NCBI GenBank assembly: GCA_004321885.1
Contig: SCQK01000004.1
Coordinates: 1 to 64,000, forward strand
Source: Patescibacteria group bacterium
GTDB lineage: Bacteria; Patescibacteriota; Patescibacteriia; Magasanikbacterales; GWA2-37-8
Direction: 5' to 3'
Length of the DNA: 64,000 nt
A model generated the notes under the pieces. It was not told where the DNA came from. It worked only from the letters and a program-made list of their open reading frames with translations, and made no database searches. Shown here one piece after another: positions 11,346-45,897 of this stretch. The position numbers were made by a program, and so were the translations under genes. Within the stretch, counting starts at the first letter, position 1, and each line of letters begins with the position of its first letter.

Positions 11346-13325
11346 TTATTTTTTTAATCCGCTGCCTTCCCACCTCGCCCGCTTGCGGTCTTTGTAAAAA
11401 TTGAACAGCAAAAGCAGAGCCACCAGTATCAGCCCGATAGTGCGCCAGTCAAAAAGCTTGAGCCACCAGTTCTTGGCGAGCAACTCTATGTTGAAATGCA
11501 CGCCCCCGCCCTCGGCCACCTCAAACGGCCGGCTCTCGTAGACAATGTAGCCGGGCGCGATTACCTTTATGCTGTACATACCCGTGGGCACCAAAAACGA
11601 ATAACTGCCGCGGGCGTCCGTAACCTGATTGTTTTCCTGCTGGAAATCTTCGGCCGGCCACAGCTCGTATTGCCTGGTGTCGGGGTTGAGCCAATAAAGC
11701 GAAATCACGGCGCCCGGAATGCGCAGTTCTTTGTCGCCAATTTTTTCATATACATACCCTTCCGGGTCAACCACGGTGATCAGGCGGATTTCTTTTTTCC
11801 CCAGTTCAGGGTCATCATAGTCAATCACGTTTATAATCTCGTATTCGCCGGCCGGGATGGGCGACTTGACTTCGGCCGTGTACACGCCATCACCGTCCGG
11901 GTCAGTGTATTCAAACTCGGCCAGCACCAATTTTTCTTCCACTGACACCGGCTGGACCTGTTCGCGGGCCAGGGCCGGCATGGCAAAGGTAATTGAGTTT
12001 AACAAATCAGCCAGGGGCAGACTGTAGGCGCTGGCGCTTGGTTTTTTGGAACGGAAAATGACATAGCCCCTGATGCTTTTAACTTTTTTGTCCGGCCGGA
12101 TGGAGAGCTGAAGTATTTTTCCGGAAATAGTAATAATTTTTTGCTCGGCACGGCCCTTGTCGGTGAGGGTAAGAAAACTGCTGTAATCCACCATTTCGCC
12201 CAGACCGCGCGCGAACACGATGTCGGACGGGATTTTGTCTTTAAGATTTTTCGGCAAATAGCTGACGGGCACGGATTGGCCTTTGGCGCTTAAAGGCGCC
12301 AATCCGAGGGACTTGGACAGGCCGGGCAGGGCCAGTTTGGTATCGCCAATTTTCTGTAAATCGCTCATGCGGCTCACGCCAACCTTGCCGAACAAATTTT
12401 TAACCTCGGGAAATTTTTGCGCCAGAGCGGTGAATTCTTTAGGCAAAGGCGCGAAGACAAATTTCTTAATTTGACGCGGGTCAATATACTCCCACCCGCT
12501 ACGCATTGAGAGCGGGGTTTTCTTGGCCACCAATTCGCGCAAAGGAATTGTGACCTGCGGGGGTTTGAAAAAATCTTTGATATGCGCGAAGAATTTGGCT
12601 ATGGGAATTTTGGGGATGACGATTTTTTTCGGGATGAGCTTGGCTAAAAGCGATTTGACAATGCCCAGGCCGCGCGCGAGGGCGGAGGGCTGGGGTGGGG
12701 TAATGGCGGCTCCCTCCCCTATTAGGGGAGGGACAGAGGGCGGGGTTTGGGGTGGAGGAATGGACTCTCCCTCCCCTATTAGAGGAGGGACAGAGGGTGG
12801 AATTACTGGCGTCGACGCTCCACCGCCGCCCCCAGACGGCGGCTGTGAAGAAGGCGGGACTCCGCCGCGCGCGCTGGCCGGACGCCAGTCGGTTTTCACC
12901 GAGCAGTTGGCGCAGACGAAATTGATGATGCCCGCATTGTCGCCGCTGGCTTGCCCCAAAAATTCTCCGCGCGAATTGATTGTTACTCCGCTGAAATTTA
13001 TCCAGCCCAAATTTTGTCCCCAGGCATAGCCCGACAGACTGCCTTCGCCGTTGTTTTTCACCCCGCTCGTGGACGGGCTAAGATTTATCCATCCATAATG
13101 GTCGCTCCAGGCATAGCCGGTGAGCGCGGTATCGGTAATATGGATATTGCCCGTATTGCCATTGTCGGACCGAAAACTTATCCAGCCGATTTTTGAACTC
13201 CAGGCATATCTGTTGTACAGGTCAATGGCGCCGTCGGTGGATGAAGCAAAAGTGGGTAACACCAAAAAGACAGTTGCCATGACTGACAGTGAAATGGCCG
13301 CGAATAAAATTTTTCTTCGTGGCAT
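11346..13325 (-). CDS. hypothetical secreted/anchored protein (W-rich repeats, Pro-rich linker, prealbumin/CarboxypepD_reg-like domain, C-terminal TM)
   Basis: 659 aa. Signal peptide. Repeats GYAWS..GWINF. Tandem PPSVPPLIGEG units coincide with tandem family-D palindromes at 12690..12800. Confidence 0.45.
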   Translation of the reverse strand: MPRRKILFAAISLSVMATVFLVLPTFASSTDGAIDLYNRYAWSSKIGWISFRSDNGNTGNIHITDTALTGYAWSDHYGWINLSPSTSGVKNNGEGSLSGYAWGQNLGWINFSGVTINSRGEFLGQASGDNAGIINFVCANCSVKTDWRPASARGGVPPSSQPPSGGGGGASTPVIPPSVPPLIGEGESIPPPQTPPSVPPLIGEGAAITPPQPSALARGLGIVKSLLAKLIPKKIVIPKIPIAKFFAHIKDFFKPPQVTIPLRELVAKKTPLSMRSGWEYIDPRQIKKFVFAPLPKEFTALAQKFPEVKNLFGKVGVSRMSDLQKIGDTKLALPGLSKSLGLAPLSAKGQSVPVSYLPKNLKDKIPSDIVFARGLGEMVDYSSFLTLTDKGRAEQKIITISGKILQLSIRPDKKVKSIRGYVIFRSKKPSASAYSLPLADLLNSITFAMPALAREQVQPVSVEEKLVLAEFEYTDPDGDGVYTAEVKSPIPAGEYEIINVIDYDDPELGKKEIRLITVVDPEGYVYEKIGDKELRIPGAVISLYWLNPDTRQYELWPAEDFQQENNQVTDARGSYSFLVPTGMYSIKVIAPGYIVYESRPFEVAEGGGVHFNIELLAKNWWLKLFDWRTIGLILVALLLLFNFYKDRKRARWEGSGLKK

Positions 13326-13439
13326 ATTTGTTTACATTAGTATAGCACAAAAAGATTTTCTTGACCCGCGTTGTCTGTGGATAAGTCGGCCTGCCCGCCT
13401 CTGGCTGGCCGCTCTTGCCTTGCGGCGAAAAAAATGGTA

Positions 13440-13586
13440 AAATAGTACCACTGAAATTACTAAATCTCAATGTCAAATTTCCAATCAATTTCAAATGACT
13501 AATGTTCAATGTCAAATTTTACATTTGAATTTTGACATTGGACATTGATTTGACATTAGTAATTTGGGTTTTGAAATTTCAACATT
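13440..13586. repeat. family-C long imperfect palindrome (CCAAT/ATTGG-rich)
   Basis: Left arm caatgtcaaatttccaatcaattt...; right arm ...atttgacattggacattgatttgacattag. About 130 bp, self-complementary, in a divergent intergenic region. Relatives at 22030..22140, 31140..31250, 31975..32100. Confidence 0.55.
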
Positions 13587-16500
13587 ATGCCCATCAAACG
13601 AGTTCAAAAAGGACGACTAAAACCACCTGTCATTGCGAGACCTGAAAGAGGCCGCCTGCCCGCCTCTGGCGGGAAGCAATCCCCCGCGATTAAGAGAGGG
13701 ATCGCCGCGTCGCCCCGACGTAACGTCAGGGCTCCTCGCAATGACAAAGTGAAACCCGACACGAGCGGCGGTTACAGCGCCAAAAACATCACGGTGCTGG
13801 AAGGCTTGGAGGCCGTGCGCCGGCGGCCCGGCATGTATATCGGTTCCACGGGCACGACGGGCCTGCATCATCTGGTTTGGGAAGTGGTGGACAACTCCAT
13901 TGACGAAGCCATGGCCGGACATTGCGACCAAATTGACATCGCCTTGCTCCCCGGCCACCTGGTGGAAGTGCGCGACAACGGCCGCGGCATTCCGGTTGAC
14001 ATTCACCCCCAGCAAAAAGTCAGCGCCCTGGAAGTGGTACTCACCAAACTGCACGCCGGCGGTAAATTCGGCGACGGCGGCTATAAGGTCTCGGGCGGCC
14101 TCCACGGCGTGGGCGTGTCTGTGGTCAATGCTTTGTCGTCGTACGTAAAAGCCGAAGTGCATCGCGACGGAAAAATTTGGCTGCAAGAATACAAAAACGG
14201 CGGCCAGCCGGTAAAAAAAGTGCGGGCCATTGGCCCGGCCAAAGACACAGGCACGACCATTACTTTTTTACCCGACGCGAGCGTTTTTGAAACATTGGAT
14301 TTTGACTGGAAGACAATCGTGGACCATATCCGCCAACAGGCCTATCTAAACAAGGGCGTGCTTATTTCCGTTTCCGACCGGCGCCAGGGCGAGGAAAAAA
14401 CCAAAGACGGAACGGCTCTCCCTTATCCCAATCCCTCATATCAATTTTATTTTGAAGGCGGCATTGCTTCTTATGTGCGCCACCTGAATCAAAACAAAGA
14501 ACTGAAAAACGAAACTATTTTTTACGTTGATAAAGAGACCGATGGCGTGCGCGTGGAAACCGCTTTGCAATACACCGACGAATACACCGAATCGCTGTTC
14601 GCCTTTACCAACAACATCCACAATCCCGAAGGCGGCACGCATGTGGCTGGTTTTCGCGCGGCTCTCACACGCGGCCTGAACACCTACGCGCGCAACAAAA
14701 ATATCCTGAAAGAAAAAGACGCGAACCTGACCGGCGAGGACGCGCGCGAGGGCTTGAACTGCGTGATTTCGGTAAAGGTGCGCGAGCCCCAGTTTGAAGG
14801 TCAGACTAAAGCCAAACTGGGAAACACCGAGGTCAAGACCGCGGTGGAATCGGTGTTTGGCGACGCGTTTTTAATTTATTTGGAAGAGCACCCGCGGGAC
14901 GCCGAGGCCATCGTGGGCAAGTGTATCTTGGCGTCCAAAGCGCGCAACGCGGCCAAAATTGCGCGCGACGCCATCCTGCGCAAGGGCGCGCTGGAAGGCT
15001 TTACTTTGCCGGGCAAGCTGGCAGATTGCTCCAGCCGTCACGCCGAAGAGAGCGAATTGTTTTTGGTGGAAGGCGACAGTGCCGGTGGCTGTTTTTTTGG
15101 CTCAACTAAGCTAAAATTAGCCGACGGTCGCAGTTTATCTTTCAAAGAATTGGTGGAGGAAAACAAACAAGAAAAGAAAAACTATTGCTATACAATAAAA
15201 GAGGACGGCGATATTGGCATTGAACTGATAAAAAATCCACGAATGACGAAAACAGGCGCGGAAGTGATAAAAGTTATATTAGATAATGACGAGGAAATTA
15301 TTTGTACTCCGGACCACAAGTTTATGTTAAGGAACGGAGAATACAAGGTGGCACAAAATCTGACTCCCTGCGATTCATTAATGCCTCTATATAGGAAAAT
15401 ATCTGAAAAGAGTGGCAGAATCACAATTGAAGGATATGAAATGACCTTTAACCCGAAAGATGCAAGATGGATTTTCACTCATCTACTGGCAGATGATTAT
15501 AATTTACGAAACGGGGTGTACCCCGATGATAGAGGCACCAACAAGCATCATGTTGATTTTAATAAGTTAAATAATAACCCAGATAATATAGTAAGGATGA
15601 CTCACGAAGATCATATGGCTTATCATGCCATGATGCTTCAATTTGGTTTGCACAGAGCGGATGTAAAAGAAAAATCCAAAAAAGCTCACCAATCCGAGGG
15701 GTTTAAAGAAAAAATGAGCAGAATCATGAGTACTCCGGAAATGAAACAAATGTTAAGCCGCAGAGCGAAAAAGCAATGGGAGAACGAGGAATATAAAAAG
15801 TTCATGACGCAAAAATTCTTGGAATTTTACAATTCTAATGAGGAATACAAAAAAAAGAATAATGATTTTCTTAATAAGGCGCAGGAAGAATATTGGGCTG
15901 ACAAAGCCAACAGGAAAAAACAAGCCGAAAGAGTCACTGCGCATTTCAAGGAACATCCCGAAAGAAAAAAATGGCTTAGGGATTTCGCGAAACGGGAATG
16001 GACAGACAAAAATCTGCTTAAATGGCGAGCCGGGAAAACCAAGGAGCAATGGACTGACGAGTTTAGAAGGAAACGAAAAGAAGCATATGACAAGGTCTAC
16101 TTGACCAGCAGTCTGGCTTTCGCCAAAAAGCTTCTTGAATCCAAAGAAGATATGCTGAAAAAATATGACACTGCGCGAATTAATCTTCCGAAAAAAAATA
16201 CCAACCTGTTGAGCTTGAGGACTTTAATTGACAGATTTTTCAACGGCCAAAAACAAAACTTCCTTGAGGCGGTGGCGAATTATAACCATAAAATAATAAG
16301 AATTGAAAAAGTTGCCGAAAAAATGGACGTATATGATATTGAAGTGCCGCACACGCACAACTTTGCATTGGCCAGCGGCGTGTTCGTGCACAATAGCGCA
16401 AAATCCGGACGCGATCGCGAACACCAGGCCATACTCCCCTTGCGCGGCAAGGTGCTGAACGTGGAGCGCGCGCGCTTGGACAAAATCATCGGCAACAACG

Positions 16501-25925: not shown

Positions 25926-25957
25926 AACAACTGGATTCCCCCGACTAAGTCGGGGGA

Positions 25958-26302
25958 ATGACAATTATGACCGAAACAACCACAAAAGCGGCAGTCTACA
26001 AGCCCGGCATGACCGTGAAGGTGCACCAAAAAATCAGGGAATTAAACGTTAAAGGCGAGGAAAAAGAACGCATTCAGATTTTTGAAGGCATGATTATCGC
26101 GGCCAAGCACGGCAATGAGCCGGGCGCCACCATTACGGTGCGCAAGGTTTCAGGCGGCGTGGGCGTGGAAAAAATTTTCCCGATTCATTCGCCCATCATA
26201 GAGAAAATAGAGGTGGAGCGCGAATACGCGGTGCGGCGCGCCAAACTCCACTATCTGCGCGACCCGAAATTTAAGAGGCGGCTGAAAGAGAAAACGAAGT
26301 AA
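25958..26302 (+). CDS. rplS: 50S ribosomal protein L19
   Basis: [13 protein letters not shown] ... [11 protein letters not shown] ... [31 protein letters not shown]. Confidence 0.85.
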
Positions 26303-26304
26303 AT

Positions 26305-26400
26305 AAAAAAACTGGCTCCATACTCTGTGTGGAGCCAGTTTGCAATACGGCTCCACAGCCCCGACTAAGTCGGGGACTATGGAGCCAGCTACTGACCAGC
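26305..26400. repeat. family-A palindromic element copy
   Basis: ctggctccatactctgtgtggagccagtttgcaatacggctccacagccccgactaagtcggggactatggagccagc. Confidence 0.7.
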
Positions 26401-31139: not shown

Positions 31140-31250
31140 AAGAATGCTTTAAATTTCCAATTTCCAATCAATGTCCAATGACCAATTACCAATATCCAAT
31201 TTGGACATTTGGATTTTGGCATTGATTTGACATTGGAAATTTGTCATTTG
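31140..31250. repeat. family-C CCAAT/ATTGG-rich palindrome
   Basis: aatttccaatttccaatcaatgtccaatgaccaattaccaatatccaat | ttggacatttggattttggcattgatttgacattggaaattt. Confidence 0.55.
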
Positions 31251-32021
31251 TCATTTCGCCAACACCTTCTCCCACTCGCTCATAGGCACTACGCCTTCCA
31301 CTTTCTCGCTGTTGATAAAAAACGTGGGCGTGCCCTGCACCCCAAATCTAAATCCGTCAGCGTAATCGCGATTCACTTTCACTCCGGTCCGGCCCGAGTC
31401 CACGCATTCTTTTAATTTTTGCGCGTCCAGGTAGGCGGTATCGGCCAAAAACTTGTAATCCTCGCCGGCCAGCTCTTTACTAAACGCGTCTTGATTGGAA
31501 AACAAGGCGTCGTGCGCCTCCCAAAAACGGCCCTGCTCGGCGGCGCAGGCCGCCACTATGGCAAACTTGTTCGCGCCCGGGTGAATTGACTCGGAGGGAA
31601 AAAGCCGGACCGTTAATTTCACTTTGTATCCATATTGGGCCATCATCTGGCGCATTATGGGCGCGGCCATTTTGGAATTTGGGCACTTGAAATCCACAAA
31701 CTCCACAATGGAAATTTTGGCATTGGGATTGCCCAAAAACAGCCCGCCCCCTTCTAACTCGGCTCGGCCCGGCTTGGCCGCGGCGAGCGGCGTTTTTATG
31801 GACCGGTCAAAATTTCCGTAAAATGTCTGCCGCAGTTTCAGCCCCTCGCCATTTTTTATCTGCCGCCAGTACCCAATGGTATAAAAAACAAAAAGCGCCA
31901 AAAACAGCGCCAGCAAAGCGCCCAGCCCCAAAATCACGATAGCCCACCAGTGGTGATACCAACGCATATGTTGAAATGACCAATTACCAATAACCAATTT
32001 CCAATCAAATCCAAATGCCAA
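31251..32021 (-). CDS. DsbA-family thioredoxin-fold protein with CPNS (CxxS) active-site variant
   Basis: N-terminal TM; VEFVDFKCPNSKMAAP; thioredoxin-like DsbA region ...GVQGTPTFFIN. Confidence 0.65.
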   Translation of the reverse strand: MAFGFDWKLVIGNWSFQHMRWYHHWWAIVILGLGALLALFLALFVFYTIGYWRQIKNGEGLKLRQTFYGNFDRSIKTPLAAAKPGRAELEGGGLFLGNPNAKISIVEFVDFKCPNSKMAAPIMRQMMAQYGYKVKLTVRLFPSESIHPGANKFAIVAACAAEQGRFWEAHDALFSNQDAFSKELAGEDYKFLADTAYLDAQKLKECVDSGRTGVKVNRDYADGFRFGVQGTPTFFINSEKVEGVVPMSEWEKVLAK

Positions 32022-32100
32022 ATAACAAACTTGGACATTTTAACTTTGACATTAGGAATTGATTTGATATTAGAAATTTGGATTTTGGCATTTACCGGAT
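31975..32100. repeat. family-C CCAAT/ATTGG-rich palindrome
   Basis: tgaccaattaccaataaccaatttccaatcaaatccaaatgccaaat ... ttggacattttaactttgacattaggaattgatttgatattagaaatttggattttggcattt. Confidence 0.55.
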
Positions 32101-36364: not shown

Positions 36365-36545
36365 GCTGGCTCCATAGTCCCCGACTAAGTCGGGGCTGTG
36401 GAGCCGTATTGCAAACTGGCTCCACACAGAGTATGGAGCCAGCGGGTGTAGAAAATCGCTGGCTCCATAGTCCCCGACTAAGTCGGGGCTGTGGAGCCGT
36501 ATTGCAAACTGGCTCCACACAGAGTATGGGGTCAGCGAGCAAAGG
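36365..36545. repeat. two tandem family-A palindromic elements
   Basis: cgctggctccatagtccccgactaagtcggggctgtggagccgtattgcaaactggctccacacagagtatggagccagcg repeated twice. Confidence 0.8.
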
Positions 36546-41018: not shown

Positions 41019-42212
41019 ATGCGCGTTGGCATTGATGTCAGGCCGCTGATGAATGACGTGCGCACCGGCATTGGCGAATACACGCATTTTTTGCTGGACA
41101 CTATTTTTGACATTGATAAAAAGAACGAATATTTTCTGTTTTACAACTCCGGCAAAGATGTCGGCGCCAATATTCCCCAGTGGACGCAAAATAATATTCA
41201 TTATGTCGCGAGCAGATGGCCCAATAAAATTTTCAACGCGTCCATAAAATTTTTCAACCGGCCGCGAATCAAAGAGGTGGACATTTTTTTTTCTCCTAAT
41301 CTCAACTTCACCGCCCTGTCGCCGAAAACAAAATTTATTCTCACGGTTCACGACTTGTCCTTTGAGCTGTTTCCGGAATTTTTTTCCGCCAAACAGCGGC
41401 TGTGGCACAAAATGATAAACCCGCGCAGACAATGCCAGCGGGCCGATATTATTATCGCGCCCTCTGAAAACACCAAGCGGGATTTGAGGGAGATATATAA
41501 TATAGAAGAGAAAAAAATAAAAGTGATTTACCCGGGAATATGTCATCCCGACCCGCCACAGGGCGGGGAGGGATCTCTGTTCACGGCTGGCTCCATAATC
41601 CCCCCCACAGGGGTGGAGCTAAACTGCAAGCTGGCTCCACAGCCCGCCTTTGGCGGGATTATGGAGCCAGCCAATTCCAATCCCTACATCCTCTTCCTCG
41701 GCACCATTGAGCCGCGCAAAAATATTATCGGCCTGATAGAGGCGTTTGAAAAAGCCTGCCCCTCGCTCCCGGCGCCTTACACCCTCGTTATCGCCGGGGC
41801 CGCGGGCTGGAACAATAAACAGATTTACGAACGCGCCAAAAATTCCCCCATTAAAGATAAAATTAAAATTTTGGGATACGTGCGGCCGGAAGAAAAGCCG
41901 GCTCTGTATGCCGGCGCGGCCTTGTTTTGCTATCCCAGCATTTACGAGGGCTTTGGTTTTCCGGTTTTGGAAGCCATGTCCGCGGGGACTCCGGTTTTAA
42001 CCTCAAACCGCTCTTCCCTGCCGGAAATAACGAGCGGCGCCGCGCACCTGGTAAATCCAAACAATGTTTCCGACATGGCCGCAGGCATAATAAACATTTT
42101 AACCAACGAAAAACTGCGCAATTTTTTGAAAGAAAAGGGCCAAGAGCAGGCCGCGAAATTTTTATGGCAAGAAGCGGCGGAAAAATTTTTAAGCGTTATT
42201 CGCTCTTTGTAA
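41019..42212 (+). CDS. glycosyltransferase family 4, with in-frame palindromic-element insertion
   Basis: GT4 motifs (ILFLGTIEPRKN, EGFGFPVLEAMSAGTPV). Segment 41585..41668 (ggctccacagcccgcctttggcgggattatggagccagcc, family-A-like) encodes ...GVELNCKLAPQPAFGGIMEPANS in frame. Confidence 0.75.
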   Translation: MRVGIDVRPLMNDVRTGIGEYTHFLLDTIFDIDKKNEYFLFYNSGKDVGANIPQWTQNNIHYVASRWPNKIFNASIKFFNRPRIKEVDIFFSPNLNFTALSPKTKFILTVHDLSFELFPEFFSAKQRLWHKMINPRRQCQRADIIIAPSENTKRDLREIYNIEEKKIKVIYPGICHPDPPQGGEGSLFTAGSIIPPTGVELNCKLAPQPAFGGIMEPANSNPYILFLGTIEPRKNIIGLIEAFEKACPSLPAPYTLVIAGAAGWNNKQIYERAKNSPIKDKIKILGYVRPEEKPALYAGAALFCYPSIYEGFGFPVLEAMSAGTPVLTSNRSSLPEITSGAAHLVNPNNVSDMAAGIINILTNEKLRNFLKEKGQEQAAKFLWQEAAEKFLSVIRSL

Positions 42213-42321: not shown

Positions 42322-43449
42322 ATGGCAGAAAAAAAAATCCTCATCCTGCACGACTACTTCCTGTACAAAGGCGGCGGAGAACGGCTGGTGATTTCTTTGG
42401 CCAAGGGTTTGGGGGCCGATATCGCCACGGCTTTTATCGCGGCCGGCGCCTTTGACCCGCGCGACCACGGCATCAAAACCTTTGAATTATACAAAGAGAG
42501 CCGTTTTTCGCGAATCCCCGGCTTCAGATATTTGCAAACGCAATTCGCTTTTTTGCTCAAAACCGGCTTTGCCAAAAACTACGATGTCGTTATTTACAGC
42601 GGCGACTGCCTCACAGCGCGATTGCGCCTAACCAAACCAAAAAGCATCGCCTACATGCATACTCCTCCGCGTCATTTGTACGACGCCTATAGCGAACGCC
42701 TGCGCGAATATCCGTTGTGGAAAAAAATAATTTTTGTTCCCTTTGTTTGGTTCAACCGTTTGCGCTTTTCTTATTTAACAAAAAAAATGAACGTGATCGT
42801 CACAAATTCTCAAAACACGCGCGCGCGCATCAAAGAGTATTTGGGATTGGATTCCATTGTCGTTTATCCGCCCTGCGATGTCGTGCCCTTGTCCAATCTG
42901 GGCTACGGCGATTATTTTTTTTCCTGGGCCCGGCTCTATCCGATTAAACGCGTGGATAAGATCGTGGAGGCCTTTGCCGCCATGCCGGATAAAAAACTGG
43001 TGGTGGCCTCGGGCGGGCCGGATCTGGAAAAAATCCAAAAACTGGCGGCCGGCTGCCAGAACATCAAAGTGCTGGGCTGGATCAGCGACCAAGAATTGGA
43101 ACAACACCTGGGCAAATGTTTGGCCACCATTTACGTTCCGGTGCGCGAGGACTTTGGCATGAGCGCGGTTGAATCCATGAATGCAGGCAAACCGGTAATC
43201 GGCGCGGCCGAAGGCGGGCTCTTGGAAATAATTGAACACGAAAAAAACGGCTTTCTGCTAAAACCCGATTTTAGCGCCGAAGATTTACGCGCGGCCGTAC
43301 GCGCCATGACCGCGGACAAAGCCGCGGCTATGGCCAATGCCTGCCTGGCCACGAGCAAAAAATTCAGCGAGCAAAACTTCATTGAGGGAATGAAAAAAAT
43401 AGTGTATAATGTCATTGCGAGGCCGAAGCAAACCCATGCCCAACGATAG
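42322..43449 (+). CDS. glycosyltransferase family 4
   Basis: MAEKKILILHDYF ... REDFGMSAVESMNAGKPVI. The last ~14 codons are encoded by the family-B element 43405..43482. Confidence 0.7.
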   Translation: MAEKKILILHDYFLYKGGGERLVISLAKGLGADIATAFIAAGAFDPRDHGIKTFELYKESRFSRIPGFRYLQTQFAFLLKTGFAKNYDVVIYSGDCLTARLRLTKPKSIAYMHTPPRHLYDAYSERLREYPLWKKIIFVPFVWFNRLRFSYLTKKMNVIVTNSQNTRARIKEYLGLDSIVVYPPCDVVPLSNLGYGDYFFSWARLYPIKRVDKIVEAFAAMPDKKLVVASGGPDLEKIQKLAAGCQNIKVLGWISDQELEQHLGKCLATIYVPVREDFGMSAVESMNAGKPVIGAAEGGLLEIIEHEKNGFLLKPDFSAEDLRAAVRAMTADKAAAMANACLATSKKFSEQNFIEGMKKIVYNVIARPKQTHAQR

Positions 43450-43491
43450 GGATTGCTTCGCCACTTCATGGCTCGCAATGACAGCGACACA

Positions 43492-45897
43492 ATGGCTAAG
43501 ATACAACTGCGCCGGTGCGCTCTTTGCCAAGAGCCCGGCCACAACAAATCCACCTGCCCCCAGCGGCACGATTTTGAAGTAGCCAAGCCCTCCGCGGCCC
43601 TGCATTTTTTTGTGCACCACACGAACCGCGACTCTTCCCCTTCTCCGCACGTAGTAAACCTCAAAGAAAAAGAGGAGCTCTGGCGCGACATAGAATCTTG
43701 CGAGCCAGAACACGGCCCGAAAAATGACGACTATTATTTTTATCACATCAAACACGCTGGCCACGACGACCCGCGCCAAACCCCGGTCGTCAATATCCTG
43801 CCGCAGGACCTGGACGCGCCCACGCCGCGGCCCTTGCCCAAAAAAAGCCAGCCCAAAAACGACAAAAAATTTTTCTCTGGAGCCGTGAGAAGCTTTAGGA
43901 AAACGTTTACTCCGGCGCGGGCCGCAGTCATTGTCTCTATTCTCACGCTGGTCGCGTTCGCCCCGTCCAGCGCGCAAAATTACTATCTAAGCGTGAAGTC
44001 AACCGCGGCCACGGCGGCCGAAAGCGGCGCCGCCGCTTTTTCGGCCCTGCGCGATTCCACCGCCGCCATTATGAGCGGCCAGCTGGACCTGGCGAGGAGC
44101 GCGCTGGAAAACGCCCTGCGCAATTTCAATCTGGCAGTGGAAACATTAAACAGCAACCATCGTTTTTTACAAACCGCCGCCGCCAGCCTGCCTATTGTGG
44201 GCCGCGACGTTTCGGGTAAGCAAAAACTGCTGCTGGCCGGCCAAGCCATTGCCCGCGGCAATGCCGAGCTTTTGCAAGGCGCGACGGAAATGGAGCGCGC
44301 AGACGCTGACCTGGCAAAAAAACTTAACGGCCTGGTGTCTTATATACAGCTATCCGTGCCGGAATTTCAAAAGGCCCTGGCCAGCCTGAAGGACGTAAGT
44401 GACGACAGCCTGCCGGAAAATTTTCAGCCGGCCCTGCAAACCGTTAAATCGGTTTTTCCCGCGCTGGTAAATGATTTAAGCGACATCGCGCGCCTGGCCC
44501 AATCCATTTCCGAAATTTCGGGCGCCCGGGGTTTGCGCCGCTATCTTTTAATTTTCCAAAATCCAAACGAAATCCGGGCTACCGGCGGATTTATGGGCAG
44601 TTTCGCCCTGCTGGAAATAGAAGACGGCAAAATGCGCAATCTGACGGTGCCGCCCGGGGGTTCATACGACCTGCAGGGTCAGCTGGACACCTACCTGGAG
44701 CCGCCGGCGCCCCTGCTTCTTTCCAACAAGCGCTGGGAATTTCAAGACGCAAACTGGTTTCCGGATTTTCCGGCCAGCGCCCAAAAAATTCTTTGGTTCT
44801 ATCGCCACAGCCGCGGCATTACGGCCGACGGGGTCATTGCCATAAACGCCACTGCGCTAAACCGCGCGCTTGAGCTCACCGGGCCCGTGGCGGACAAAAA
44901 ACGGGGGCTGATTTTGGCCAAAGACAACGCCCTGGACGTCATTTCCAAGGTGGTGGAATTTGGTCCGGAAAAGAAGGACAAAAAACCAAAGCAGATTTTA
45001 TCCGACCTGGCGCCAATTTTCGCGGACTATTTTCAAAATCTTAAAGCCGGCGAAACCCTGCCCGCCCTGTCCTCCCTGCTTGACGCCTTGCAAAAAAAAG
45101 AAATTCAGGTATATTTCAACGACAAGGCAACGCAGAACATTATGGAAGAATTCGGCTGGGCCGGCAAAATGGCGAATACCTACCCGGACCAGGATTATTT
45201 AATGGTGGTTAATTCCAATCTGCAGGGTCAAAAAAGCGACGCGGCCATTTCCCAGCTGGTCAGTCACCAGGCGGTAGCGCAAGCCGACGGCAGTATCATA
45301 GACAGCGTGGTGATAGAACGAAAACACAACGGCGTCCCCGGCGAACCACTCTACGGCCAGACCAACATAGATTATATCCGCGTCTATGTGCCGGCCGGCA
45401 GCGAACTCAAGAGCGCCAGCGGTTTTGTCTGGCCCGATGAAAAAAAATTCAAAGCCCCGGCCGCCTTTTATCAAAAAGACGCTTTCCTGGCCGGCCTGGA
45501 AAAAGAAATAGCCATAGACGACAGGTCTGGCACGCGCGTAACCGATGAATTCGGCAAAAGGGCTTTCGGCAACTGGCTCATCACCGAACCGGGCCAGACC
45601 AGCCGCGTGGAATTCGTATATCAGTTGCCTTGGCTGGCTTTTGCCGCCGATAAAGCAAACTCGCTAAAATGGGCGGAAAAAATTTTTGGCGGAGCAATTT
45701 CGGCCCGCTATCAGTTGGTGGCTCAAAAACAATCCGGGGTGGAGTCCGCGTTTGAAAGCCAATTTATTTTCCCGGCCGGTTGGACGCCGGTTTGGCGCCA
45801 GGGCGAAAATATGACGTTGGCCGGAAACGGCGCCGATGTTTCCCAAACTATGTTGGACACGGACAAGATTTGGAGTTTGGTTTTAGAAAAAGAATAA
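43492..45897 (+). CDS. DUF4012 domain protein (EPS-cluster associated) with N-terminal zinc-knuckle-like CCALCQEPGHNKSTC
   Basis: LIFQNPNEIRATGGFMGSFALLEIEDGK motif typical of DUF4012. The listed ORF start 43453 lies inside the family-B palindrome, so the start is taken at ATG 43492. Confidence 0.65.
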   Translation: MAKIQLRRCALCQEPGHNKSTCPQRHDFEVAKPSAALHFFVHHTNRDSSPSPHVVNLKEKEELWRDIESCEPEHGPKNDDYYFYHIKHAGHDDPRQTPVVNILPQDLDAPTPRPLPKKSQPKNDKKFFSGAVRSFRKTFTPARAAVIVSILTLVAFAPSSAQNYYLSVKSTAATAAESGAAAFSALRDSTAAIMSGQLDLARSALENALRNFNLAVETLNSNHRFLQTAAASLPIVGRDVSGKQKLLLAGQAIARGNAELLQGATEMERADADLAKKLNGLVSYIQLSVPEFQKALASLKDVSDDSLPENFQPALQTVKSVFPALVNDLSDIARLAQSISEISGARGLRRYLLIFQNPNEIRATGGFMGSFALLEIEDGKMRNLTVPPGGSYDLQGQLDTYLEPPAPLLLSNKRWEFQDANWFPDFPASAQKILWFYRHSRGITADGVIAINATALNRALELTGPVADKKRGLILAKDNALDVISKVVEFGPEKKDKKPKQILSDLAPIFADYFQNLKAGETLPALSSLLDALQKKEIQVYFNDKATQNIMEEFGWAGKMANTYPDQDYLMVVNSNLQGQKSDAAISQLVSHQAVAQADGSIIDSVVIERKHNGVPGEPLYGQTNIDYIRVYVPAGSELKSASGFVWPDEKKFKAPAAFYQKDAFLAGLEKEIAIDDRSGTRVTDEFGKRAFGNWLITEPGQTSRVEFVYQLPWLAFAADKANSLKWAEKIFGGAISARYQLVAQKQSGVESAFESQFIFPAGWTPVWRQGENMTLAGNGADVSQTMLDTDKIWSLVLEKE

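What the first reader, a model, noticed from the sequence alone, without database searches (positions are those of the whole stretch)
13628..13750. Family-B palindromic element embedded in frame at gyrB 5' end, inside queA, and at a GT4/DUF4012 junction
The ~85-120-bp element tgtcattgcgag...ctcgcaatgaca, with an inner cgaagcaatc/gattgcttcg repeat, occurs at 5222..5306 (intergenic), 13628..13750, 21697..21800 and 43405..43482. In gyrB it encodes an extra ~40 residues after the first ATG. In queA it adds ~34 residues (LSLRMERSGMKQSLAVTNGIASSSRVLGTPHNDST) without breaking the frame. At 43405 it supplies the last codons of one gene and a spurious start of the next. This behaviour is like Rickettsia palindromic elements, which insert in frame into protein-coding genes.
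Basis: partly seen in the sequence, partly recalled or inferred. Interest (0 to 1): 0.7.

Follow-up and report, generated by a model that had tools for sequence, protein, structure and literature searches.

The report
Nuclease-linked palindromic repeat translated inside genes
A 74-119-base palindromic repeat sits four times in this Patescibacteria window and is read in frame inside GyrB and QueA. It is the gene-less form of a roughly 360-base unit that carries a small GIY-YIG nuclease of the Ssn family described in 2025, so this is a new variant and a new host group for a known kind of selfish DNA.

Summary
Four copies, bounded by TGTCATTGCGAG...CTCGCAATGACA, lie at 5222-5303, 13628-13746, 21695-21793 and 43410-43483. 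The 12-mer gives 8 hits against 0.4 expected.

Alignments with 119 QueA and 120 GyrB relatives (Magasanikbacteria-like Patescibacteria) show both coding copies are lineage-specific and in frame. One sits in a variable QueA loop, modelled at low confidence. The other sits in the variable GyrB linker after the clade-conserved start MPIKRVQKGRI. The fourth copy supplies the last 12 codons and the stop of a GT4 gene.

The same termini occur in more than twelve bacterial phyla. Loci fetched through a roughly 95-aa GIY-YIG protein always carry them (81 of 81). In 49 of 67 evaluable cases the gene lies between the two halves, in the central loop. That protein is 43% identical over 86 aligned residues to a Neisseria gonorrhoeae GIY-YIG ORF flanked by NTS repeats, which I take to be the SsnA ortholog. 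SsnA is a single-strand DNA nuclease that cuts beside hairpin repeats (Chenal 2025). The repeats also resemble the CGTC/TGTC-tagged REPs of Di Nocera 2013, which include two Rickettsia palindromic element families.

The Rickettsia comparison is therefore supported and may reflect shared ancestry. This family is missed by the published Ssn-related motif, shows no target duplication, and has no ssn gene in the window. Novelty is moderate.

The parts
5222..5303 (.). Copy 1, 82 nt. It fills the gap between the stop of a Laminin_G-domain ORF (5309-7513, minus strand) and a Bro-N ORF (4358-5227, minus strand). The ATG of the Bro-N ORF is the ATGACA of the element terminus.
   Evidence: (RNA fold -44.8 kcal/mol, z -8.0).
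13628..13746 (+). Copy 2, 119 nt. It is translated as GyrB residues 15-54 (VIARPERGRLPASGGKQSPAIKRGIAASPRRNVRAPRND), in the variable linker between the clade-conserved MPIKRVQKGRI start and the ATPase domain. Its inner stem is degenerate.
   Evidence: 4 of 6 frames are open.
21695..21793 (-). Copy 3, 99 nt = 33 codons. It is translated as QueA residues 78-110 (LSLRMERSGMKQSLAVTNGIASSSRVLGTPHND) in a variable loop. Only 1 of its 6 frames is open, and that is the frame in use.
43410..43483 (.). Copy 4, 74 nt. It supplies the last 12 codons and the TAG stop of the GT4 glycosyltransferase gene (42322-43449). It also contains the TTG at 43453 and the ATG at 43468 of the mechanical DUF4012 ORF.
20935..20960 (-). 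Solo TGTC-tagged hairpin of a sister family (TGTC-ATCCTGAA-CTTGT-TTCAGGAT-C, 8-bp stem, 5-nt loop). It lies inside a second in-frame QueA insert (DCHPELVSGSPVASRQA, about 20915-20966).
   Evidence: The two nearest homologs, P0002 and P0010, carry a longer doublet at the same site.
25931..25963 (-). The only match in the window to the published Ssn-related motif (TGTCATTCCCCCGACTTAGTCGGGGGAATCCAG). It is intergenic and abuts the next ORF's ATG.
13587..17117 (+). gyrB, host gene of copy 2. It also carries an intein.
20826..22025 (-). queA, host gene of copy 3 and of the solo hairpin. The product is 100% identical to an NCBI Patescibacteria QueA.

Best explanation
The element is the gene-less, MITE- or REPIN-like form of a compact palindromic unit. 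The full unit of about 350-430 bp carries a roughly 95-aa GIY-YIG nuclease of the Ssn family in its central loop.

Each half (TGTC-ATTGC...GCAAT-C) is a tagged hairpin site of the kind that Ssn nucleases bind in single-stranded DNA, cutting a few bases upstream. Two halves in inverted orientation make the palindrome.

Copies spread without target duplication, probably through single-stranded intermediates. They are then filtered by selection. In this small genome, the survivors are copies in spacers, at gene ends, or in frame in disordered loops and linkers of essential proteins, where they are simply translated.

What is shown: the repeat, the in-frame lineage-specific inserts, and the tight embedding of ssn genes between the same termini. 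What comes from the literature: the ssDNA cleavage chemistry. What is inferred: that Ssn mobilises the short copies, and how insertion happens.
For: - Repeat and fold.
- In-frame and lineage-specific.
- Partner gene: among 930 kb of element-bearing loci, the only recurrent neighbour tightly adjacent to the element was a GIY-YIG ORF, with 3 copies, all abutting element halves.
- Independent test: 80 metagenome loci were fetched through the protein alone. 81 of 81 genes have the termini within 600 nt. 49 of 67 evaluable genes have a left terminus upstream and a right terminus downstream within 130 nt. Terminus density is 9.9 per kb near the gene against 0.43 per kb more than 1 kb away. 44 loci give clean units of 352-427 bp, often with the stop codon fused to the inner arm (TGAGATTGCTTCG).
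- Protein identity: Pfam GIY-YIG E=1.6e-16; 43% identity over 86 aligned residues, E=3e-27, to a Neisseria gonorrhoeae GIY-YIG ORF flanked by NTS repeats, which I take to be the SsnA ortholog.
- Homologs in S. meliloti, A. lipoferum and Planktothrix are flanked by their own TGTC/CGTC-tagged repeats.
- Sister families keep the skeleton while the outer tetranucleotide changes together with the inner one: TTGC/GCAA, TTCT/AGAA, TCCT/AGGA, TGCT/AGCA.
- Ssn biochemistry and the NTS-ssnA-NTS layout: PMC11893778.
Against: - No ssn gene is present in the 64-kb window, and I could not reach the rest of the genome.
- The four copies are only about 60% alike in mean column identity, so none looks recent.
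- The family fails the published Ssn-related motif (0 of 145).
- Its half-hairpin has only a 5-bp stem.
- No one has shown that Ssn moves DNA. In Neisseria it was shown to limit transformation, not to transpose.
- The protein set used to fetch loci came from element-adjacent genes, so the 81 of 81 result applies to this subfamily only.
Confidence: 0.75

Rival explanations
1. The repeat spreads by some other route, such as another transposase, recombination or gene conversion. On this view the small GIY-YIG gene is a homing-type parasite that targets the loop of a pre-existing repeat. The nuclease would then be a passenger rather than the mobilising enzyme.
For: The ORF sits exactly in the central loop, as a homing gene would. 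Short copies far outnumber ssn copies: only 3 ssn genes in 930 kb of element-bearing loci. The window has 4 copies and no ssn gene. Free-standing GIY-YIG homing endonucleases are established knowledge.
Against: No other transposase family recurs next to the element. There is no target duplication and no flank consensus. Ssn homologs in four other lineages are flanked by their own cognate repeats, which fits co-evolution of enzyme and site. SsnA cuts only ssDNA (PMC11893778), not the duplex DNA a homing enzyme would need.
Confidence: 0.15
2. The copies serve the host, for example by marking DNA for Ssn-dependent control of transformation and recombination as in Neisseria, or as transcript-stabilising or terminating hairpins. 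They would be kept for that role rather than as selfish DNA.
For: In N. meningitidis, NTS repeats with SsnA lower the integration of transforming DNA (PMC11893778). Copy 1 and the motif at 25931 sit in short spacers between co-oriented genes.
Against: Copies lie inside coding sequence and in either orientation relative to the genes. The interiors are not conserved. The variable dinucleotide of the inner arms changes independently on the two sides (70 matches against 67.7 expected), so the long stem is not under pairing selection there. No Rfam family matches at gathering thresholds. No ssn gene is seen in the window.
Confidence: 0.07
3. The segments are ancestral or functional protein modules of GyrB and QueA, and the DNA palindrome is secondary.
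For: The reading frames are intact. The GyrB segment is basic, like the lysine-rich linkers of its homologs.
Against: None of 119 QueA and 120 GyrB homologs has these residues. The same DNA occurs in intergenic sites and in unrelated genes and phyla. The QueA segment is modelled as disordered.
Confidence: 0.03

Closest known systems
Ssn-related motifs (NTS/dRS3 in Neisseria) with SsnA, a single-domain GIY-YIG ssDNA endonuclease (Chenal et al. 2025, Nat Commun, PMC11893778)
   Same: A small GIY-YIG gene of about 95 aa, 43% identical over 86 aligned residues to a Neisseria gonorrhoeae GIY-YIG ORF flanked by NTS repeats (taken to be the SsnA ortholog), is flanked on both sides by inverted tagged hairpin repeats. 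The repeats carry an HGTC tag upstream and a C just after the palindrome. Many orphan repeats are scattered in the genome. The repeat-gene-repeat layout resembles an insertion sequence.
   Different: None of the 145 family-B copies matches the published degenerate motif. The stem is 5 bp (ATTGC/GCAAT) with an 8-20-nt loop, rather than 8-9 bp with a 3-5-nt loop. The two halves form one palindrome with invariant 12-nt ends, and the gene sits exactly in its loop. The hosts include Patescibacteria, Chloroflexota, Bacteroidota and Cyanobacteria. A text search of that paper finds no mention of Patescibacteria, Cyanobacteria, or intragenic or in-frame copies.
CGTC/TGTC-tagged REP superfamily (Di Nocera et al. 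2013, PMC3733652)
   Same: TGTC tag, a stem starting with AT, mostly head-to-head dimers, occasional intragenic copies, and no tyrosine transposase nearby. The solo hairpin at 20935-20960 has the described geometry exactly (8-bp stem, 5-nt loop).
   Different: Family-B halves have a shorter stem and a long loop. The tail is CTC rather than CCA. That paper found no dedicated enzyme, whereas here the partner gene is evident.
Rickettsia palindromic elements (Ogata et al. 2000, 2002; summarised in PMC10969869)
   Same: Palindromic repeats of about 100 bp inserted in frame into unrelated housekeeping genes at positions compatible with the protein fold. RPE-4 and RPE-6 carry the CGTC tag according to Di Nocera 2013.
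   Different: The host phylum differs, and this family spans many phyla rather than one genus. Sequence similarity to RPEs was not tested here. Most family-B copies are intergenic: in the 120 genome loci only about 3 of 141 copies lie inside a plausible gene (from 11 with reading frames open through them).
REPINs with RAYT transposases
   Same: An inverted doublet of short hairpin repeats forms a longer hairpin. The copies are non-autonomous, the associated gene is flanked by the repeats, and there is no target duplication.
   Different: The tag is TGTC rather than GTAG, and the partner is a GIY-YIG nuclease rather than a Y1 (HUH) transposase. No RAYT was found among the neighbours.

Membership tests
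Ssn-associated repeats (SRM/NTS) | Repeats flank genes of the Ssn (cd10448-type, single-domain GIY-YIG) family on both sides | tested here: met
   81 of 81 genes have termini within 600 nt. 49 of 67 evaluable genes have correctly oriented termini on both sides within 130 nt. There is a 23-fold enrichment near the gene. Pfam GIY-YIG E=1.6e-16, and 43% identity over 86 aligned residues to a Neisseria gonorrhoeae GIY-YIG ORF flanked by NTS repeats.
Ssn-associated repeats (SRM/NTS) | Match to the published search motif HGTCWYN(0-2)YYVSBRHN(0-5)WNVSBRGN(0-2)RNCYNB | tested here: not met
   0 of 145 family-B copies and 0 of the 4 window copies match. The control NTS sequence matches. The motif also misses the S. 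meliloti repeat, so it is a strict search tool rather than a definition.
Ssn-associated repeats (SRM/NTS) | Oriented hairpin with an HGTC tag 5' of the palindrome and a C immediately 3' of it | tested here: met
   TGTC (sometimes CGTC)-ATTGC...GCAAT-C in both halves of nearly all copies. Across sister families the outer and inner tetranucleotides change together.
Ssn-associated repeats (SRM/NTS) | Cleavage of the single-stranded repeat by the cognate Ssn | not testable with these tools
   This needs purified protein and oligonucleotides.
Ssn-associated repeats (SRM/NTS) | An ssn gene is present in the same genome | tested here: inconclusive
   tblastn finds none in the 64-kb window. The rest of the genome could not be fetched.
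CGTC-tagged REPs (Di Nocera 2013) | CGTC/TGTC tag, 8-9-bp stem starting with AT, 4-5-nt loop | tested here: not met
   The tag and the AT start are present, but the family-B stem is 5 bp with a long loop. The solo hairpin at 20935-20960 does meet all three.
Rickettsia palindromic elements | Palindromic repeat inserted in frame in protein genes at tolerated positions | tested here: met
   QueA loop and GyrB linker. Further cases are the UvrA-like ORF, the GAF/HD-GYP ORF and the membrane-protein ORF in other loci.
Rickettsia palindromic elements | Sequence relatedness to an RPE family | not tested
   No RPE sequence was compared. The link rests on Di Nocera 2013, which assigns RPE-4 and RPE-6 to the CGTC class.
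Classical MITE (DDE-transposase derived) | Terminal inverted repeats plus target-site duplication | tested here: not met
   The 12-bp terminal repeats are present, but there is no duplication of 1-9 nt above chance and no flank consensus in 143 copies.
REPIN/RAYT | GTAG-tagged REP doublets associated with a Y1 transposase | tested here: not met
   The doublet architecture is present, but the tag is TGTC and no recurrent transposase appears among 640 neighbouring ORFs.

The most novel reading that the evidence does not exclude
The roughly 360-bp unit (two tagged hairpins plus a 95-aa GIY-YIG ssDNA nuclease in the loop) is an autonomous mobile element, and the nuclease itself acts as the transposase. 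It would be among the smallest autonomous elements known and would use an enzyme class not yet recognised as a prokaryotic transposase. Its gene-less derivatives would then account for the long-orphaned CGTC/TGTC REPs, including some Rickettsia palindromic elements, and would be actively remodelling loops of essential proteins in Patescibacteria.
Probability: 0.3. Interest if true: 0.8.

Novelty: new variant of a known kind. Interest (0 to 1): 0.5.

Why it matters
- It extends protein-coding palindromes, best known from Rickettsia, to the candidate phyla radiation and to two essential enzymes.
- It shows that one QueA loop and the GyrB N-terminal linker are recurrent landing sites for several repeat families in this clade.
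- It identifies a repeat family, present in many phyla, that the published Ssn-related motif misses. Surveys based on that motif therefore undercount these elements.
- It supplies a clean pair of gene-bearing and gene-less forms with identical ends. This is the kind of evidence needed to test whether Ssn nucleases mobilise their repeats.
- On the practical side, these repeats create spurious starts, stops and small ORFs (CHCE..., VIAR..., ...LAMT, ...RND peptides) that contaminate gene calls.

Tried and rejected
- **Rfam:** the gathering-threshold scan found RNase P, tRNAs and a DUF3800-II RNA but nothing on the element.
- **Literature by sequence:** a full-text search for the terminal DNA words and the typical peptides returned only unrelated primers.
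- **gyrB start:** I considered that gyrB starts at the GTG at 13749, which would put the element in the leader. The conserved MPIKRVQKGRI start in homologs rules this out.
- **Target duplication and flank consensus:** none found.
- **Recurrent neighbouring transposase:** none found. The other recurrent neighbour families were housekeeping genes; the only one tightly adjacent to the element was the GIY-YIG gene.
- **Structured RNA:** the variable inner-arm dinucleotide does not covary between the two sides, so I did not build a covariance model.
- **Novelty of the GIY-YIG link:** I briefly took this link to be new. Chenal 2025 already describes the family and its repeats.
- **Rest of the contig:** the exact-protein look-up failed twice.
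- **Phages and viral contigs:** there are no protein hits in the phage collection. IMG/VR holds 34 stretches with the element but no ssn gene, so a viral vector is not supported.
- **Chance match:** the exact 10-mer at 5765-5774 is a chance match inside a gene.
- **Not used:** the third homolog search, on the GT4 C-terminus, because the ORF end is visible directly in the sequence.
Full report
**Observation**

The window holds four copies of an element bounded by the inverted 12-mers TGTCATTGCGAG and CTCGCAATGACA. They lie at 5222-5303, 13628-13746, 21695-21793 and 43410-43483. The 12-mer with at most one mismatch occurs 8 times against 0.40 expected, and no shuffle reaches 8.

Three copies have the inner arms CGAAGCAATC and GATTGCTTCG. 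The gyrB copy has a degenerate version. Each copy folds far better than shuffled sequence, with z from -4.6 to -8.0.

**Host organism**

The QueA protein is 100% identical to an NCBI entry from a Patescibacteria group bacterium. Its relatives, at 55-66% BLASTP identity, are mostly Candidatus Magasanikbacteria.

**Coding copies: QueA**

Alignment to the solved QueA structures leaves residues 74-119 without a counterpart. Among 119 homologs this stretch is a short variable loop, typically MLDExxxxxxKKIDSTDKILN. None of them has the 33 element-coded residues LSLRMERSGMKQSLAVTNGIASSSRVLGTPHND.

An AlphaFold model built on 62 sequences gives most of the core pLDDT 75-97 and the insert 41-61, with no secondary structure after a short helix. 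That fits a protruding loop. Only one of the six frames of this copy is open, and it is the frame in use.

**Coding copies: GyrB**

Similarity to solved GyrB structures starts at ORF residue 58-62, and a GTG follows the element directly. I therefore tested whether the element is a leader rather than coding sequence.

Most of the 120 homologs begin with MPIKRVQKGRI or a close variant, followed by a lysine- and proline-rich linker. The N-terminal segment before the conserved SYSAKNITVLEGLEAVR measures 12-101 residues. The window's ORF has both conserved ends, with KPP, the element and KVKPDTSGG between them. The upstream ATG is therefore genuine and the element is translated.

Its length of 119 nt is not a multiple of three. 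Either the inserted unit had slightly different limits, or a small indel in the linker restored the frame.

**GT4 end and copy 1**

The GT4 gene (Pfam Glycos_transf_1) runs 12 codons into copy 4 and stops there. The DUF4012 ORF has two candidate starts inside the element and an in-frame ATG at 43492 just outside it. Copy 1 fills the spacer between two genes on the minus strand, and the downstream ORF's ATG is the ATGACA of the terminus.

**A clade-wide habit**

The same QueA loop carries other repeat-derived peptides in other lineages:
- SLPRRGRGGLP...PSSLPLGKGE in P0007 and P0077;
- RLRQGYAGQAG in five homologs;
- others in P0018, P0108 and P0120.

A second QueA site carries DCHPELVSGSPVASRQA in the window protein and a longer SHPEFISGSKRKIPKQVRNDNVDG in its two nearest relatives. 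The DNA of that second insert is a solo hairpin, TGTC-ATCCTGAA-CTTGT-TTCAGGAT-C.

GyrB linkers of relatives also contain repeat-like peptides. In the window itself, ORF 11346-13325 translates a GGGAGGG/CCCTCCC palindrome as tandem PPSVPPLIGEG.

**Distribution**

The hits come from Bacteroidota (many Mucilaginibacter), Patescibacteria, Cyanobacteria, Chloroflexota, Planctomycetota, Nitrospirota, Verrucomicrobiota, Firmicutes, Gemmatimonadota, Omnitrophota, and Alpha-, Beta-, Gamma- and Deltaproteobacteria.

The 145 copies collected are 71-144 nt long, with no preference for multiples of three (52, 53 and 40 in the three length classes). They show no target-site duplication and no flank consensus. 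They have somewhat more open frames than shuffled copies (2.46 against 1.76 of 6).

In the 120 genome loci, eleven of the 141 copies have a frame open for at least 60 codons on both sides. I printed six of those reading frames. Three are plausible genes: a UvrA-like protein, a GAF/HD-GYP protein and a membrane protein. Three look like spurious antisense ORFs in GC-rich DNA.

**Architecture**

The skeleton is, in order:
- outer arm TGTCATTGCGAG;
- a variable linker or small GC hairpin;
- inner arm (C)G-NN-GCAATC(T/C)C;
- a variable loop;
- the mirror image of the first three parts.

The NN dinucleotide (AA, TG or CG) varies independently in the left and right inner arms, with 70 matches against 67.7 expected. 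The long inner stem is therefore not under pairing selection at those positions, which argues against a conserved RNA helix.

Sister families in the same loci keep the skeleton but change the outer tetranucleotide together with the inner one: TTGC with GCAA, TTCT with AGAA, TCCT with AGGA, TGCT with AGCA. This links the outer arm to the inner arm of the same half. Each half is thus a tagged hairpin unit and the whole element is an inverted doublet.

**Partner gene**

Clustering 640 ORFs within 400 nt of the copies gave mostly housekeeping families. The one family consistently abutting the element was a GIY-YIG ORF of about 95 aa. Only three such genes exist in the 930 kb, all directly flanked by element halves, and they are 62-73% identical to each other. 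They come from a Woesebacteria, a Nostoc and a Dehalococcoidales genome.

As an independent test I fetched metagenome loci through the protein alone. There were 568 confirmed relatives and the best 80 were kept. Results:
- All 81 genes have family-B termini within 600 nt.
- 49 of 67 evaluable genes have a left terminus upstream and a right terminus downstream within 130 nt.
- Terminus words are 23 times denser near the gene than more than 1 kb away.
- In 44 loci the unit is clean, at 352-427 bp: TGTCATTGCGAG, linker, GAAGCAATCTC, 0-60 nt, ATG...ORF...stop, GATTGCTTCG, linker, CTCGCAATGACA. The stop is often fused to the inner arm.

The gene therefore occupies the central loop, and the short element is the same unit without the gene.

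**What is already known**

Di Nocera et al. 2013 defined CGTC-tagged (often TGTC-tagged) REPs. These have stems starting with AT, occur mostly as head-to-head dimers, are present in five phyla and are sometimes intragenic. They include Neisseria dRS3 and R. conorii RPE-4 and RPE-6, and the authors found no dedicated transposase.

Chenal et al. 2025 showed that the 94-aa GIY-YIG protein SsnA of N. meningitidis binds the NTS hairpin repeat only as single-stranded DNA and cuts a few nucleotides upstream. They also showed that thousands of homologs are flanked by cognate Ssn-related motifs and that the NTS-ssnA-NTS layout resembles an insertion sequence. Species with more than 300 motifs include Rickettsia, Wolbachia and Neisseria.

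The family-B protein is 43% identical over 86 aligned residues to a Neisseria gonorrhoeae GIY-YIG ORF that is flanked by NTS repeats, which I take to be the SsnA ortholog (E=3e-27). Homologs in S. meliloti, A. lipoferum and Planktothrix are flanked by their own tagged repeats. The partner relationship I found is thus known in kind.

**What differs**

- None of 145 family-B copies matches the published motif.
- The half-hairpin has a 5-bp stem and a long loop.
- The two halves form one palindrome with invariant 12-nt ends, and the gene sits exactly in the loop.
- The hosts extend to Patescibacteria and other phyla that paper does not mention, and it says nothing about intragenic copies.
- The window also has one canonical motif at 25931-25963.

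**Mechanism**

The shown facts are the repeat, its in-frame translation context and its embedding of ssn genes. The ssDNA binding and cleavage come from the literature.

I infer that Ssn acts on the two oppositely oriented halves, one on each strand, when DNA is single-stranded. I also infer that copies insert without duplication, and that selection leaves only copies in spacers, at gene ends, and in frame in disordered regions.

Three points weaken the mobilisation step. No ssn gene is present in the window. The four copies are only about 60% alike in mean column identity. No study has shown that Ssn moves DNA.

The main rival is that the nuclease gene homes into a repeat that spreads by other means. 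A host function and an ancestral protein module are less likely, for the reasons given under the rivals.

**Spread between phyla**

The element is rare in viral contigs (34 stretches), and the ssn gene is absent from both the viral contigs and the phage collection. A phage vector is therefore not supported. Homologs do occur on large secondary replicons of rhizobia and on a Planktothrix plasmid.

**Verdict**

The element is a divergent member of the Ssn-associated, TGTC-tagged palindromic repeats. It is new in its hairpin geometry, in its gene-in-loop layout, and in being translated inside essential Patescibacteria proteins.

Noticed in passing
window 13587-17117 (about codons 500-880): GyrB is 1176 aa long because it carries an intein (Pfam Intein_splicing E=5e-10, plus a weak HNH match). 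The same gene therefore hosts two kinds of selfish insert.
   Followed up: partly
window 1704-1804, 4230-4314, 7686-7786, 26311-26389, 36365-36469, 41586-41671: A second palindromic repeat family, GCTGGCTCCATA...TATGGAGCCAGC. The 12-mer gives 16 hits against 0.24 expected.
   Followed up: no
window 12711-12790, inside ORF 11346-13325 (minus strand): A GGGAGGG/CCCTCCC palindromic repeat is translated in frame as tandem PPSVPPLIGEG. The same peptide type occupies the QueA loop of homologs P0007 and P0077.
   Followed up: partly
window 25931-25963 (minus strand): The only match in the window to the published Ssn-related motif (TGTCATTCCCCCGACTTAGTCGGGGGAATCCAG). It abuts the ATG of the next ORF.
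   Followed up: partly
window 20915-20966 (minus strand): A second in-frame QueA insert (DCHPELVSGSPVASRQA) built on a solo TGTC hairpin. The nearest homologs, P0002 and P0010, carry a longer doublet at the same site, which suggests an older, partly decayed insertion.
   Followed up: partly
window 5222-5227, 25958-25963, 43468-43480: On the opposite strand the element termini read ATGACA, so they offer ATG codons that mechanical ORF calls use as starts. This is a likely source of mis-annotated N-termini.
   Followed up: no
window 13433-13586, 22028-22157, 31151-31249, 32007-32093: AT-rich inverted repeats of the AATTTCCAATGACCAA type lie in the regions upstream of gyrB, queA and other genes.
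   Followed up: no
window 61251-61314; 7514-7587: A DUF3800-II RNA (Rfam, 67 bits). Separately, a tRNA-Arg lies inside the mechanical ORF 5309-7651, so that gene must start downstream of the tRNA.
   Followed up: no
L010 2834-2922; L100 3623-3715; L033 1968-2082: In other genomes, family-B copies are read in frame inside a UvrA-like protein, a GAF/HD-GYP protein and a membrane protein. The L010 UvrA-like ORF also carries a GGTPPHGGG-type insert.
   Followed up: partly
L204 (Planktothrix agardhii plasmid p1, 18450-19513): An ssn homolog flanked by TGTCATTCTGAG-family repeats sits between an MmeI-type restriction enzyme gene and DISARM drmA, that is, inside a defence island.
   Followed up: no
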